Assembly (NCBI GenBank): GCA_013815345.1
Contig: JACDGK010000006.1
Coordinates: 1 to 63,851 of the forward strand
Length of the DNA: 63,851 nucleotides
Direction of reading: 5' to 3'
Source: Patescibacteria group bacterium
GTDB taxonomy: Bacteria; Patescibacteriota; Minisyncoccia; Phycocordibacterales; Phycocordibacteraceae
Part shown: positions 20,589-23,343 of the stretch, piece by piece
Layout: each line of letters starts with the position of its first letter
Position numbering within the stretch: the stretch's first letter is position 1
Program-made: the position numbers and the translations under genes
Notes under the pieces: generated by a model
Seen by the model: only the letters and a program-made list of their open reading frames with translations
What the model was told of the DNA's origin: nothing
The model's database searches: none

Positions 20589-21773
20589 TTACTCAAAATA
20601 TCTCTTTTTCTTCAACTTATCCGGTAAATAGCTTTCTTCGTCATATTTCTTGTACCCCTTGCCGTAGTCGAGTTCTTTCATGAGTTTTGTGGGTGCGTTG
20701 CGAATCTTCTTCGGGACTGGCAAGTTACCAAATGCCTCCACATCTGCTTGAGCTAAACCTAGTGCGTTATACGATGAGCGATCTTTCTGCGCTTTTGCTA
20801 GGTACGCCACGCCATGTGCCAAGTTTATCGAGCATTCAGGATAGCCGATCGTTTCGCATGCTCGGAAGACAGCGTTAGCTACCACCAAAGCGGTGGGCTG
20901 CGCGAGTCCAATGTCTTCAGATGCGAACACGACCATTCTTCGCGCGATAAAGAGAGGATCTTCTCCTGCTTCCACCATACGGGCAAGATAATATATGGCA
21001 GCATCTGGCTGCGATGCCCGCATGCTTTTTATAAACGCACTAATGGTGTCGTAGTGCTCCTCGCCTTTCTTGTCATATCGCAGGTGTGGAGACTCGAGCG
21101 CTTTGTTCAAGTTCGCAACAGTGACCTTCTTTCCATAAAGCGCCTGCGCACCTTCGAGAATACCGAGAGCCCGGCGTGCGTCCCCATTGGCGTACCCCAG
21201 AAGCCACGCAAAGGTATCCTCAGAGAGTTTGATGCCGGCACGCGACACAATGGCCCGCAGAGATTCTTCGGAAAGCGGCTCGAGCACGAAGACCCGCGCA
21301 CGTGAAAGGAGCGCAGGAATGACTTCAAAAGACGGATTCTCGGTAGTGGCACCAATCAACGTCAACTTTCCTGATTCCACATAGGGCAAAAGAAAGTCCT
21401 GTTGGCTTTTATTAAAACGATGGATCTCGTCCAGAAAAAGTACTTTTGGCTTATCGGGTATCAACAACTCTTGTGAGCTAAAGGGCTCTGCTTTTCTCGC
21501 AAGCCTTCCTTTCTTTTCTCCCTCAACAATAGTGCGTATGTCTTCCTTGCCTGCCGAAACTGCTGAGAGCTCGTAGAGTTCAGCATCAAGAGCGCGCGCA
21601 TAAATGCGCGCGATTGTCGTCTTCCCGGTCCCCGGAGGCCCCCAGAGAATAAAGGAAAAGAGATGTTTCTTTTCAATAGCCACGCGCAGTGGTTTGCCAG
21701 AACCGGCCAAATGCTCCTGCCCCACCACCTCTTCAATGATTGTTGGCCGTATGCGCGCAGCGAGAGGTTCCAT
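20589..21773 (-). CDS. rarA: Replication-associated recombination protein A (RarA/MgsA)
   Basis: [54 protein letters not shown]. Confidence 0.95.
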
Positions 21774-21812
21774 CACCCAAGCCTACTCCTTAGCAGCAAA
21801 GACGACTAGCTT

Positions 21813-21850
21813 TTACAATACTTTACAATTACCTTACAATGAATTACAAT
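21813..21850 (+). repeat. Four phased direct repeats TTACAAT (candidate operator)
   Basis: Copies at 21813, 21823, 21834 and 21844 (spacing 10, 11, 10 bp). Confidence 0.85.
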
Positions 21851-21856
21851 CCCTAA

Positions 21857-22909
21857 ATGAGTACTCGGTCAGAAATTATAGCGAATTTCATAACTAAACA
21901 TGGAAGTGTGACTTCAGCCGATGTCGCTGCTATGTTAAAAATGTCGCGTCAGCAAGCACATGCTATTTTGCGTGGGCAGGTACAAACCGGAGGACTTATA
22001 AAGATTGGCCACACCCGTGGTACCCGCTATGTGCGATCAGAGAGTACCCTTCCAGCCAAAGACCAGTTCAGCCTTGATCTAAAAAATCTCAACCTTAGAG
22101 AGCACGAGGTGCTTATAGAGATACGAGATCGATTTCTTCCCTTAAAACTTGCGTCTGAAAATGTGCAAAGTATTTTCGATTATACCTTTTCAGAAATGCT
22201 CAATAACGCCATCGACCATTCTGAATCCGAAAAGATTTCCGTATCAGTTTTTACCACCGGAGACGCGTCGCGTGGTGAACCTACAAGACTTTCTTTTGTT
22301 ATACGTGACTGGGGTATTGGTGTTTTTCGAAATGTTATGCGAGGACAAAAACTAAGTTCCGAACTCGAAGCAATGCAGGATCTTCTAAAAGGAAAAATTA
22401 CCACCGCCCCTGAGGCACATTCTGGTCAGGGTATATTTTTTACTTCACGTGTTGCTGACCTTTTTTCGCTTCGCAGCTATGGGTGGGAAATGAGAATCGA
22501 TAATCAACTTCCTGATATATTTTTTCTTCCTAATGAAAATGTCGTTCAGGGTACCGAGGTGCGTTTTAGTCTGACCTATCGTTCAAAAAAACATCTCATT
22601 GATGTTTTCCGTGCATTTGAATCAGAAGATGGTTTGCAGGATTTCGATCGAACCGAAGTACATGTCCGACTTTTTATCCACGGAACCATCCATGTTTCGC
22701 GTTCACAAGCACGACGGGTTCTTACGGGCCTGGAACGATTCAAAAGAATAACCCTTGATTTTGAGCGCGTGCCAACAATAGGACAAGCATTTGCTGATGA
22801 AATATTCCGGGTGTTCCAAACTCGCTATCCAGGCATTCACATTGAAATCCTCAACGCCAACGAAGCAGTGCAATTTATGATTAACCGCGTTGACCACAAA
22901 GTATCCTGA
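21857..22909 (+). CDS. wHTH + HATPase (anti-sigma-kinase-like) + STAS-like (DUF4325) fusion protein
   Basis: N-terminal wHTH (SRQQAHAILR...GHTRGTRY); GHKL boxes EMLNNAIDH, DWGIG, HSGQG; C-terminal VSRSQARR...LDF...IGQAFADEIFR. Confidence 0.8.
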   Translation: MSTRSEIIANFITKHGSVTSADVAAMLKMSRQQAHAILRGQVQTGGLIKIGHTRGTRYVRSESTLPAKDQFSLDLKNLNLREHEVLIEIRDRFLPLKLASENVQSIFDYTFSEMLNNAIDHSESEKISVSVFTTGDASRGEPTRLSFVIRDWGIGVFRNVMRGQKLSSELEAMQDLLKGKITTAPEAHSGQGIFFTSRVADLFSLRSYGWEMRIDNQLPDIFFLPNENVVQGTEVRFSLTYRSKKHLIDVFRAFESEDGLQDFDRTEVHVRLFIHGTIHVSRSQARRVLTGLERFKRITLDFERVPTIGQAFADEIFRVFQTRYPGIHIEILNANEAVQFMINRVDHKVS

Positions 22910-22925
22910 CTACCGTAGCCAAATA

Positions 22926-23267
22926 TTAATGGATGGTTCTTTCAGGTTCGTGCACTCGTACCTTGTCGAGAAGTTTCTGAAGCGCCGCTTCGTCCCTAAT
23001 ATCAATACTCTGATCTGCGGGAGCAAGAGCTGGATCAATTTTAAAAGCCCGAAAACGCCTTGAGAGAGAATCTCTCACTTCCTCGCCTTCAAGCCACTTG
23101 TCCATTGGGTCTGCTTCATTCGGGAAAGCTTGCCTTGCAAGCATCACTTGTACACGTGGATCGTTCAGGGGTAGTGGGGGTAACGACTCACGCTTCATTT
23201 TACGTACCAAATCTTCCCCGCTTTCTATATGACTTCCTTCGAGTGACATAGGTAAATCATACACCAA
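22926..23267 (-). CDS. Hypothetical protein directly downstream of tRNA-Gly (start may be ATG 23249)
   Basis: Open ORF with protein-like composition, no motif recognised. Confidence 0.55.
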   Translation of the reverse strand: MVYDLPMSLEGSHIESGEDLVRKMKRESLPPLPLNDPRVQVMLARQAFPNEADPMDKWLEGEEVRDSLSRRFRAFKIDPALAPADQSIDIRDEAALQKLLDKVRVHEPERTIH

Positions 23268-23272
23268 CGCTG

Positions 23273-23343
23273 TGCGGGATAGGAGAATCGAACTCCTGCT
23301 ATCAGTTTGGAAAACTGATGTTCTACCATTAAACTAACCCCGC
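23273..23343 (-). tRNA. tRNA-Gly(TCC)
   Basis: GCGGGGT...ATCAG-TT-TCC-AA-CTGAT...GGAGTTCGATTCTCC-TATCCCGCA cloverleaf; no encoded CCA. Confidence 0.95.

What the first reader, a model, noticed from the sequence alone, without database searches (positions are those of the whole stretch)
21813..21850. Four helically phased TTACAAT repeats forming a likely autoregulatory operator
Seen: TTACAAT at 21813, 21823, 21834 and 21844, spaced 10/11/10 bp so they lie on one face of the helix, in the 83-bp gap between divergent rarA and the wHTH-HATPase-STAS gene. The last copy's TACAAT is exactly 6 nt before ATG 21857, so it doubles as a leaderless -10 element. Established: winged-helix proteins often bind tandem direct repeats at ~10-11 bp periodicity. 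Inference: the fusion protein oligomerises here, represses itself and may also control rarA.
Basis: partly seen in the sequence, partly recalled or inferred. Interest (0 to 1): 0.62.

Follow-up and report, generated by a model that had tools for sequence, protein, structure and literature searches.

The report
Self-operator of a mobile regulator gene
Four evenly spaced TTACAAT repeats sit on the promoter of an unstudied DNA-binding/ATPase/STAS-like gene, and the same kind of repeat array precedes that gene in about 80 distant bacteria, so it is almost certainly the site where the protein binds to control its own expression.

Summary
TTACAAT occurs at 21813, 21823, 21834 and 21844 (+). It is the only such cluster in the 839-kb genome.

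The repeats overlap sigma-70-like promoters (TTTACA-17-TACAAT, twice). The last TACAAT ends 6 nt before ATG 21857, with no Shine-Dalgarno (SD) sequence. -10-like hexamers peak at exactly this position genome-wide, so a leaderless start is plausible.

The proposed refutation test was run and failed to refute.
- Homologues (36-65% identity) at 82 loci, mostly Patescibacteria plus several other phyla, nearly all carry arrays of GTTKACAAY-type words in the 100 nt before the start codon.
- These words are more than 100-fold enriched there and spaced in multiples of about 11 bp.
- The word supplies the -35 box in 78 of 79 predicted promoters and the -10 box in 46.
- Word variants follow the protein tree.

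Same-genus genomes have an empty site in which tRNA-Gly abuts rarA. The array therefore arrived with a ~1.5-kb insert and belongs to the cassette, not to rarA.

Binding and repression are inferred, not shown. Control of rarA is unsupported.

The protein family is large and uncharacterised. CapK/CapS is the closest studied system, but this protein fails its defining features. I rate it a new variant of a known kind, of moderate interest.

The parts
21813..21819 (+). Repeat copy 1, TTACAAT (extended word cTTTTACAATa). TTTACA at 21812-21817 is the -35-like hexamer of promoter P1.
21823..21829 (+). Repeat copy 2, TTACAAT (aCTTTACAATt). TTTACA at 21822-21827 is the -35-like hexamer of promoter P2.
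21834..21840 (+). Repeat copy 3, TTACAAT (aCCTTACAATg). TACAAT at 21835-21840 is the -10-like hexamer of P1.
21844..21850 (+). Repeat copy 4, TTACAAT (gAATTACAATc). TACAAT at 21845-21850 is the -10-like hexamer of P2 and ends 6 nt before ATG 21857.
21822..21850 (+). Predicted promoter P2: TTTACA-17 nt-TACAAT, 10 of 12 matches. The predicted transcription start is at or next to the A of ATG 21857, giving a leaderless mRNA with no SD in ccctaa. A twin, P1, lies one step upstream at 21812-21840.
   Evidence: 3 promoter-like sites against 0.5 expected. (genome-wide -12/-13 peak of TANNAT).
21857..22909 (+). Gene for the 350-aa wHTH / GHKL ATPase / DUF4325 (STAS-like) protein (P0001), the presumed binder of the array.
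   Evidence: (DUF4325 at 54.9 bits against a cut-off of 23; HATPase_c_2 weak). (AF2 pLDDT 88, pTM 0.83; helices 4-15, 20-27, 31-43 and strands 47-50, 57-60 form the wHTH). (invariant N, G1 and G2 boxes).
20589..21776 (-). rarA/mgsA (AAA+ ATPase), the divergent neighbour. It keeps a 19-nt leader with AAGGAG. It is not part of the cassette.
21793..23271 (.). Approximately 1.48-kb segment absent from same-genus genomes, in which tRNA-Gly(TCC) abuts the rarA start. It holds about 20 nt, the array, the regulator gene and an orphan ORF. The boundaries are approximate.
   Evidence: L102, L105, L106 and L110 are empty sites.
22926..23267 (-). 113-aa orphan ORF, convergent with the regulator gene and directly downstream of tRNA-Gly. 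It has no homologue in any related locus, Pfam, PADLOC or PHROGs.
23272..23343 (-). tRNA-Gly(TCC), the ancestral upstream neighbour of rarA on the same strand and the right border of the insert.

Best explanation
The four TTACAAT repeats are the operator of the gene they precede. That gene lies on a ~1.5-kb accessory segment inserted between tRNA-Gly(TCC) and rarA. It encodes a protein with an N-terminal winged helix-turn-helix (wHTH), a GHKL ATPase of the anti-sigma-kinase type, and a STAS-like DUF4325 domain.

The same short word serves three purposes: binding site, -35 box (TTTACA, or TTGACA in relatives) and -10 box (TACAAT). The copies are 10-11 bp apart, so all four face one side of the helix.

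Four wHTH domains, most simply two dimers held together by the ATPase/STAS part, would coat the -35 box, the -10 box and the start site. This would shut out RNA polymerase, giving negative autoregulation. When the sites are free, transcription starts at or next to the A of ATG 21857 and yields a leaderless mRNA.

Shown here:
- the repeats, their uniqueness in the genome and their phasing;
- the overlap with consensus promoters;
- conservation of such arrays before homologues in many phyla;
- co-variation of the word with the protein;
- the empty site in relatives;
- the predicted wHTH fold.

Inferred: that this protein binds the array, that binding represses, the stoichiometry, the transcription start, and that ATP or a signal sensed by the GHKL/STAS part changes occupancy.
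For: **1. Local anatomy.**
- Copies lie at 21813, 21823, 21834 and 21844. Two promoters of the form TTTACA-17-TACAAT are built from copies 1+3 and 2+4.
- This is the only such cluster in the genome.

**2. Conservation with the gene.**
- 8 of 61 related genomes have the gene.
- Every intact copy has GTTKACAAY repeats upstream.
- The tandem pattern TTKACAAYN{2,5}TTKACAAY hit 6 of 61 genomes. Four hits were exactly upstream of the gene. Three off-target hits compare with two hits of the reversed control pattern.

**3. Wider sample: 82 loci from at least 582 relatives.**
- The best 8-mer has 3-6 copies in 72 of 82 upstream regions, against mostly 2 in shuffled and distal controls.
- TKACAAY density is 1.71 per locus in -50..-1 and 0.71 in -100..-51, against 0.013 background.
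- Spacings are quantised at 11, 21-22, 32-33 and 43-45 bp.

**4. Dual coding of the word.**
- 79 of 82 loci have a promoter matching at least 9 of 12 positions (controls 2 of 71 and 2 of 82).
- The -35 box lies in a repeat copy in 78 of these, and the -10 box in 46.
- Copies around -40 are G variants (TTGACA; 40 G to 10 T). Copies around -20 are T variants (TACAAT; 40 T to 1 G).

**5. Specificity.**
- Variant words go with variant recognition helices or wings: ACATAGA, ACAGTA, CTTACAAG and ACTATTAAATA.
- A separate clade has GTTGACAACTT plus an inverted copy after the -10 box.
- Word classes cluster on the protein tree: 21 changes against 33.5 when shuffled, with 0 of 200 shuffles as low.

**6. 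Ownership.** The tRNA-Gly/rarA junction is empty in four same-genus genomes, so the array came with the insert.

**7. DNA-binding domain.** The AF2 model shows a wHTH at residues 4-60 with pLDDT 87-97 for those residue blocks. Domain-level fold matches include AspA, FeoC and Z-alpha wHTH proteins.

**8. Leaderless start.**
- TANNAT hexamers peak at -12/-13 genome-wide (30 and 17, against about 4 baseline), and the SD signal is weak.
- Among homologues the -10 box ends 6-11 nt from the ATG in 48 of 79 loci, and an SD-like motif is present in 8 of 82.
Against: - There are no binding, footprint or expression data.
- Copies 3 and 4 lack the T that precedes the core in 215 of 237 family sites, so they may be weak sites that are mainly -10 boxes.
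- The layout here (10/11/10, contiguous) differs from the usual 11/22/11 layout.
- Operator overlap with a promoter suggests repression but does not prove it.
- A regulator whose only detectable target is itself needs another output, which is unknown.
- Upstream sequence and protein share descent, so clustering of word classes on the tree is weaker evidence than independent co-variation.
Confidence: 0.75

Rival explanations
1. The array is the protein's own binding site, but binding activates or acts as a two-way switch rather than repressing. For example, upstream copies could recruit polymerase, or ATP-dependent remodelling could open the promoter, giving positive feedback.
For: - Many relatives have extra copies upstream of the -35 box, at -60 to -90, where class I activators sit.
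- The protein has an intact ATPase.
- C-type controller proteins of mobile restriction-modification cassettes use paired operators for both activation and repression (from memory).
Against: - In 78 of 79 loci a copy is the -35 hexamer itself, and in 46 another copy is the -10 hexamer.
- In this window all four copies lie between -45 and -7, leaving no upstream activator position.
- The promoter hexamers are already near consensus, so activation is not needed.
Confidence: 0.12
2. The repeats are only stacked sigma-70 promoters, with no dedicated regulator. The repeated word would merely be a -35/-10 hybrid selected for strong, host-independent expression.
For: - Each unit contains TTTACA and TACAAT.
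- Three overlapping promoter-like sites are predicted.
- Single TTGACAAY words elsewhere in the genome look like ordinary -35 boxes.
Against: - Conserved positions extend beyond the hexamers: G at -2, T at -1 and AAT after ACA.
- Clade B has an inverted copy downstream of the -10 box.
- Variant words such as ACTATTAAATA, ACATAGA and ACAGTA are not promoter-like, yet they are repeated with the same phasing.
- No other gene in this genome has such an array.
Confidence: 0.04
3. The array is bound for a purpose other than transcription: a loading, partition or mobility site of the cassette, or the target of a host factor encoded elsewhere.
For: - The cassette is an insertion at a tRNA-linked hot spot and is spread patchily across phyla.
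- The wHTH gives weak matches to the centromere-binding protein AspA.
Against: - No recombinase, no Rep gene and no flanking direct repeats were found.
- The array always lies on the promoter in the gene's orientation, not at cassette ends.
- A host factor cannot explain conservation across phyla with a patchy gene distribution, nor word changes that follow the protein.
Confidence: 0.06
4. The array is primarily the regulatory region of rarA, or of both divergent genes.
For: - The 83-bp gap must hold any dedicated rarA promoter.
- After the insertion rarA lost its ancestral position directly behind tRNA-Gly.
Against: - rarA orthologues in four same-genus genomes have no such array.
- rarA lies beside the gene in none of the other 80 loci.
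- No promoter on the - strand passes the scan.
- A divergent upstream neighbour is the minority arrangement, 18 of 70.
Confidence: 0.03

Closest known systems
CapK/CapS (and VapK/VapS) kinase-STAS repressor modules; Chambers et al., EMBO J 2026, PMC13373217
   Same: - It uses the same domain vocabulary: HTH, an anti-sigma-type GHKL kinase/ATPase and a STAS-like domain.
- A wHTH repressor binds sites overlapping its own promoter, including the -10 box.
- Binding is cooperative and multi-copy.
- It occurs in accessory, horizontally spread loci.
   Different: - CapK/CapS are two proteins (HTH-STAS-GHKL and STAS-wHTH). This is one polypeptide with the order wHTH-GHKL-STAS-like.
- CapS binds TTAA palindromes. 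Here there are four direct TTACAAT repeats.
- CapS has a conserved phospho-serine on STAS helix 2. Here the equivalent position, judged from the secondary-structure register, is an invariant Gln310.
- There is no downstream immune operon here.
- No sequence-level match was found.
SpoIIAB-SpoIIAA / RsbW-RsbV partner-switching pairs
   Same: - The GHKL N, G1 and G2 boxes are present.
- There are weak sequence matches to anti-sigma F factor.
- The C-terminal domain has a STAS-like fold, with an RsbV match at TM 0.69 normalised to the target.
   Different: - The parts are fused into one chain with a DNA-binding head.
- No sigma-factor partner is evident.
- The canonical phosphorylatable serine is absent.
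- The output would be operator occupancy rather than sigma release.
OmpR/PhoB-type winged-helix regulators on direct-repeat boxes (from memory)
   Same: Winged-helix domains bind head-to-tail to direct repeats spaced about 10-11 bp on one face of the DNA, overlapping or abutting the -35 box.
   Different: - There is no receiver domain.
- Here the repeat word itself is both the -35 and the -10 box.
- Four or more copies cover the whole core promoter.
Controller (C) proteins of restriction-modification cassettes, e.g. C.PvuII and C.AhdI (from memory)
   Same: A small mobile cassette carries its own HTH autoregulator, with paired operators on the promoter and a leaderless transcript. This gives host-independent, self-limiting expression after transfer.
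   Different: - C proteins are about 80-aa Xre-type HTH dimers on palindromic C-boxes.
- They control a downstream nuclease gene.
- Here the regulator carries its own ATPase/STAS module, and no downstream gene is evident.

Membership tests
Pfam DUF4325 (PF14213, STAS-like) proteins with an N-terminal wHTH and a GHKL ATPase | DUF4325 domain above the gathering score | tested here: met
   54.9 bits against a cut-off of 23, residues 284-339.
Pfam DUF4325 (PF14213, STAS-like) proteins with an N-terminal wHTH and a GHKL ATPase | GHKL ATP-binding motifs (N box E/N, G1 DxGxG, G2 GxG) | tested here: met
   E113, N116, N117, D151, G153, G155, G190 and G192 are invariant in 83 sequences. The Pfam HATPase_c_2 and HATPase_c matches are below their cut-offs. 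GyrB-type fold matches were found.
Pfam DUF4325 (PF14213, STAS-like) proteins with an N-terminal wHTH and a GHKL ATPase | N-terminal winged helix-turn-helix | tested here: met
   three helices plus a two-strand wing, residues 4-60, pLDDT 87-97 for those residue blocks. AspA, AdcR, FeoC and Z-alpha matches at domain level.
CapK/CapS module (PMC13373217) | Two adjacent genes: capK (HTH-STAS-GHKL) followed by capS (STAS-wHTH) | tested here: not met
   There is a single 350-aa ORF with the order wHTH-GHKL-STAS-like. The next ORF is a convergent orphan.
CapK/CapS module (PMC13373217) | Conserved phospho-acceptor serine at the start of STAS helix 2 | tested here: inconclusive
   Judged from the secondary-structure register (strand 297-301, helix 310-323), the position is G309-Q310, invariant in 83 sequences. 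No structural superposition on CapS or SpoIIAA could be run.
CapK/CapS module (PMC13373217) | Palindromic TTAA operators (narrow and wide) | tested here: not met
   The operator here is made of direct TTACAAT repeats. The paper's sites are described.
CapK/CapS module (PMC13373217) | Sits upstream of an immune operon and responds to DNA damage | tested here: not met
   No operon lies downstream and there is no PADLOC match. The damage response cannot be tested with these tools.
Negatively autoregulated repressor with an operator over its own promoter | Binding sites overlap the -35 box, the -10 box or the start site of the regulator's own gene | tested here: met
   by consensus prediction only.
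Negatively autoregulated repressor with an operator over its own promoter | The protein binds these sites and lowers transcription | not testable with these tools
   This needs EMSA or footprinting and a reporter assay.
Leaderless mRNA | A -10 hexamer 6-7 nt before the start codon and no SD sequence | tested here: met
   TACAAT at 21845-21850, then ccctaa, then the ATG. There is a genome-wide TANNAT peak at -12/-13.
Leaderless mRNA | Mapped transcript 5' end at the start codon | not testable with these tools

The most novel reading that the evidence does not exclude
One 8-11-bp word acts at once as the -35 box, the -10 box and the operator for the cassette's own product, and the mRNA is leaderless. 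The unit therefore needs nothing host-specific beyond sigma-70 polymerase. This would let a one-polypeptide, CapK/CapS-like ATP/STAS switch spread across Patescibacteria and into other phyla as a self-limiting single-gene cassette.

In this genome the insertion also cut rarA off from its ancestral tRNA-Gly co-transcript. Expression of this replication-fork ATPase would then pass through the occupied operator and become wired to the switch.
Probability: 0.25. Interest if true: 0.7.

Novelty: new variant of a known kind. Interest (0 to 1): 0.5.

Why it matters
Patescibacteria (the candidate phyla radiation, CPR) have tiny genomes and, as is generally held, few recognisable transcription factors, and almost nothing is known about their gene control.

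This family has about 1,050 clusters at 50% identity with E <= 1e-30. It now has a predicted DNA word, a site layout and a promoter, so it can be tested directly by gel shift and reporter assays in E. coli.

It would be a single-chain counterpart of the kinase-STAS repressor logic first described in 2026. It also shows how one short word can encode both promoter and operator in a portable cassette.

The empty-site comparison shows that a housekeeping gene, rarA, normally read straight off a tRNA gene, has been separated from it by the insert.

Tried and rejected
- **Regulon search.** There is no second array in the genome. Of 72 single TTKACAAY words, 20 are intergenic and they look like ordinary -35 boxes.
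- **Off-target tandem pairs in relatives.** The hits in G004 (two) and G056 occur at the rate of the reversed-pattern control. They lie before unrelated genes or inside coding sequence.
- **Defence-system membership.** PADLOC gave no meaningful match. PHROGs gave only weak domain-level matches. NCBIfam gave nothing above its cut-offs.
- **Solved structures.** No whole-protein relative exists, only domain-level matches.
- **Cassette ends.** No direct or inverted repeats bracket the ~1.5-kb insert.
- **Orphan ORF as partner.** ORF 22926-23267 has no homologue next to any family member.
- **Conserved link to rarA.** None was found.
- **(HhH)2 similarity.** The C-terminal region gives a marginal match to the Hef (HhH)2 domain (E 0.027). 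I discounted it because the model has a beta-alpha-beta topology.
- **Literature.** 'DUF4325' returned three papers, none of them about function. 'Leaderless' with CPR returned nothing usable.

Full report
**1. The observation**

The sequence reads gctTTTACAATacTTTACAATtaccTTACAATgaaTTACAATccctaaATG.
- TTACAAT lies at 21813, 21823, 21834 and 21844, spaced 10/11/10.
- It sits in the 83-bp gap between rarA (ATG 21773, - strand) and ATG 21857.
- The heptamer is not over-represented in the window: 7 matches against 8.1 expected.
- The 839-kb genome holds 72 copies and no other pair within 45 nt.
- A search for any 7-mer occurring four times within 45 nt found only this array, apart from true tandem repeats on contig C22. 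It found none in 20 simulated genomes.

**2. Local anatomy**

The downstream gene (21857-22909) encodes a 350-aa protein.
- It has a DUF4325 (STAS-like) domain above the Pfam threshold and weak HATPase matches.
- In an 83-sequence alignment the GHKL N, G1 and G2 boxes are invariant.
- The AlphaFold2 model (pLDDT 88, pTM 0.83) gives a textbook winged helix at residues 4-60, followed by an alpha/beta ATPase and a beta-alpha-beta C-terminal domain.
- Foldseek finds no whole-protein relative in the PDB. It finds only domain matches: wHTH proteins (AspA, FeoC, Z-alpha), GyrB-type ATPases and RsbV.

The repeat unit contains both TTTACA and TACAAT.
- Copies 1+3 and copies 2+4 each form TTTACA-17-TACAAT, matching 10 of 12 consensus positions. 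Three promoter-like sites are found against 0.5 expected.
- The last -10 box ends 6 nt before the ATG, and there is no SD sequence.
- In this genome TANNAT hexamers peak sharply at -12/-13 from start codons (30 and 17, against about 4), while the SD signal is weak.
- A class of leaderless genes therefore exists here, and this gene fits its geometry exactly.

**3. The decisive comparison**

*Related genomes.*
- Among 60 relatives, 7 carry the gene at 42-50% identity.
- All intact copies have GTTKACAAY repeats in front.
- The pattern TTKACAAYN{2,5}TTKACAAY hit 6 of 61 genomes. Four of those hits were exactly at the gene. Three stray hits compare with two for the reversed control, and inspection showed them to be unrelated.

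*Wider sample.* A scan of one genome per species gave at least 582 relatives. I kept 80 loci, mostly from many Patescibacteria lineages. The rest come from MAGs labelled Thermodesulfobacteriota, Actinomycetota, Omnitrophota, Ignavibacteriota, Verrucomicrobiota and Pseudomonadota.
- Nearly every upstream region holds an array.
- The best 8-mer has 3-6 copies in 72 of 82 loci, against mostly 2 in controls.
- TKACAAY density is 1.71 and 0.71 per locus in the two 50-nt bins before the ATG, against 0.013 elsewhere.
- Spacings fall at 11, 21-22, 32-33 and 43-45 bp, a period of about 11 bp.
- The usual layout is two pairs, at -52/-41 and -19/-8.
- The window's 10/11/10 array is a compact variant of that layout.

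**4. Promoter and operator are the same word**

- 79 of 82 loci have a sigma-70-like promoter in -100..-1 (controls 2 of 71 and 2 of 82).
- The -35 hexamer lies inside a repeat copy in 78 of them, and the -10 hexamer in 46.
- Copies near -40 are the G variant (TTGACA; 40 G to 10 T). Copies near -20 are the T variant (TTTACAAT, giving TACAAT; 40 T to 1 G).
- The -10 box ends 6-11 nt before the ATG in 48 of 79 loci, and only 8 of 82 show an SD-like motif.

Conserved positions outside the hexamers argue against a mere stack of promoters. So do inverted copies downstream of the -10 box in one clade, and non-promoter-like variant words (ACATAGA, ACAGTA, CTTACAAG, ACTATTAAATA) repeated with the same phasing.

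Those variants go with changed recognition helices or wings. Word classes also cluster on the protein tree: 21 changes against 33.5 when shuffled, with 0 of 200 shuffles as low. The window's protein is sister (100/100 support) to a 65%-identical protein whose array reads TTACATT/TTACAAA.

**5. Whose array is it?**

rarA orthologues (79-86% identity) exist in 22 of 36 same-genus genomes searched.
- In four of them (L102, L105, L106, L110) tRNA-Gly(TCC) lies 0-27 nt from the rarA start on the same strand.
- In this window about 1.48 kb (roughly 21793-23271) is intercalated. It holds the array, the regulator gene and an orphan ORF.
- Two other genomes hold an unrelated secreted protein in the same slot.

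The array therefore arrived with the accessory segment.
- rarA is next to the gene in no other locus.
- A divergent upstream neighbour is the minority arrangement, 18 of 70.
- 'May also control rarA' thus has only local geometry in its favour.
- rarA has, however, lost its ancestral position behind the tRNA. Where it is now transcribed from is open.

**6. Mechanism**

The best reading, at about 0.75, is as follows.
- The protein binds its own promoter through the wHTH, four domains on one face of the DNA.
- These are probably two dimers held together by the ATPase/STAS part.
- Binding occludes the -35 box, the -10 box and the start site, giving negative autoregulation of a leaderless transcript.
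- The GHKL/STAS part presumably changes occupancy in response to ATP or a signal.

Every step beyond sequence anatomy and comparative conservation is inference. Rival readings are activation or a two-way switch (0.12), a non-transcriptional or host-factor site (0.06), stacked promoters only (0.04) and a rarA operator (0.03).

**7. Comparison with what is known**

The library holds no functional paper on DUF4325.

The closest characterised system is CapK/CapS (PMC13373217). There an anti-sigma-type kinase phosphorylates a STAS-wHTH repressor that sits on TTAA palindromes over its promoter. This protein fails that system's defining features:
- it is one chain, not two;
- the domain order differs;
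- the operator is direct repeats, not palindromes;
- an invariant Gln occupies the position of the phospho-serine, judged from the secondary-structure register and not by superposition;
- there is no downstream operon.

It may work like CapK/CapS, but it is not a member. The binding geometry resembles that of OmpR/PhoB-type winged helices, and the cassette logic resembles that of controller proteins of restriction-modification systems (both comparisons from memory).

Earlier notes of this scan on other genomes had already remarked that this family carries its own repeat-bearing promoter. I reached the same view independently. I then used those notes mainly as a pointer to the CapK/CapS paper.

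**8. Verdict**

- The kind of thing, an autoregulatory operator, is ordinary.
- The particular design is not described in the library I could search: one word serving as -35 box, -10 box and operator, with a leaderless start, on a portable single gene for an uncharacterised wHTH-GHKL-STAS-like protein with about 1,050 clusters at E <= 1e-30.
- I rate it a new variant of a known kind, with interest 0.5.

Noticed in passing
window 21774-21792 and 23272-23343; loci L102, L105, L106, L110: In same-genus genomes the rarA start codon lies 0-27 nt after the 3' end of tRNA-Gly(TCC) on the same strand. rarA is therefore ancestrally read as a tRNA-mRNA co-transcript. The junction is a variable slot: empty in four genomes, filled by a PG-binding acidic-repeat secreted protein in G035 and G028, and filled by the regulator cassette here.
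   Followed up: partly
L007 (G005:C8), upstream of the homologue: This copy lacks about the first 27 codons (helices 1-2 of the wHTH) and most of the repeat array. Only GGTTTACTATCGACAAT remains, fused to the GISRQYA codons. It is probably a decayed copy.
   Followed up: no
L078, L083, L089, L090, at +1021..+1062 from the gene start: In the Syntrophaceae-type loci a second operator-like set lies directly after the gene's stop: GTTTACAACTTGTTGACAAC, then about 20 nt, then GTTGTCAAC. In L078 it lies upstream of an EcsC-family gene and a bacterial PH-domain gene. This suggests a second target in that clade.
   Followed up: partly
genome contig C22, 1-1200 (outside the window): The contig begins with six copies of ACCCTAAA, a CCCTAAAA telomere-like 8-mer. 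Several other 8-10-bp tandem arrays follow in a gene-poor stretch. It may be a eukaryotic contaminant or the end of a linear element.
   Followed up: no
whole genome G000: -10-like TANNAT hexamers peak at -12/-13 from start codons, while SD-like motifs at the first start codon are at the background level. A sizeable share of genes may therefore be leaderless.
   Followed up: partly
window 22650-22909 (protein residues 263-350): The DUF4325 region gives a marginal sequence match to the (HhH)2 domain of Hef (1x2i, E 0.027; HVSxxxARRxL and IGxxxAxEI). The model nevertheless has a beta-alpha-beta topology. S281, R282 and S283 are invariant and unexplained.
   Followed up: no
family-wide; clade B loci L076-L094: The G variant of the word is a quasi-palindrome (TTG-W-CAA, or GTTG-W-CAAC in clade B). 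This is the same 4+1+4 geometry as the 'narrow palindrome' TTAAaTTAA bound by CapS.
   Followed up: no
G015:C17 (L008, L101) and L041: In two relatives the homologue lies about 2.8 kb from rarA on the same strand. This is a different placement in the same neighbourhood.
   Followed up: no
loci L023, L031, L035, L038, L052, L053, L058: Contigs from MAGs labelled Gamma- or Deltaproteobacteria carry cassettes that nest inside Patescibacteria clades of the protein tree. This reflects either mis-binned CPR contigs or recent transfer.
   Followed up: no
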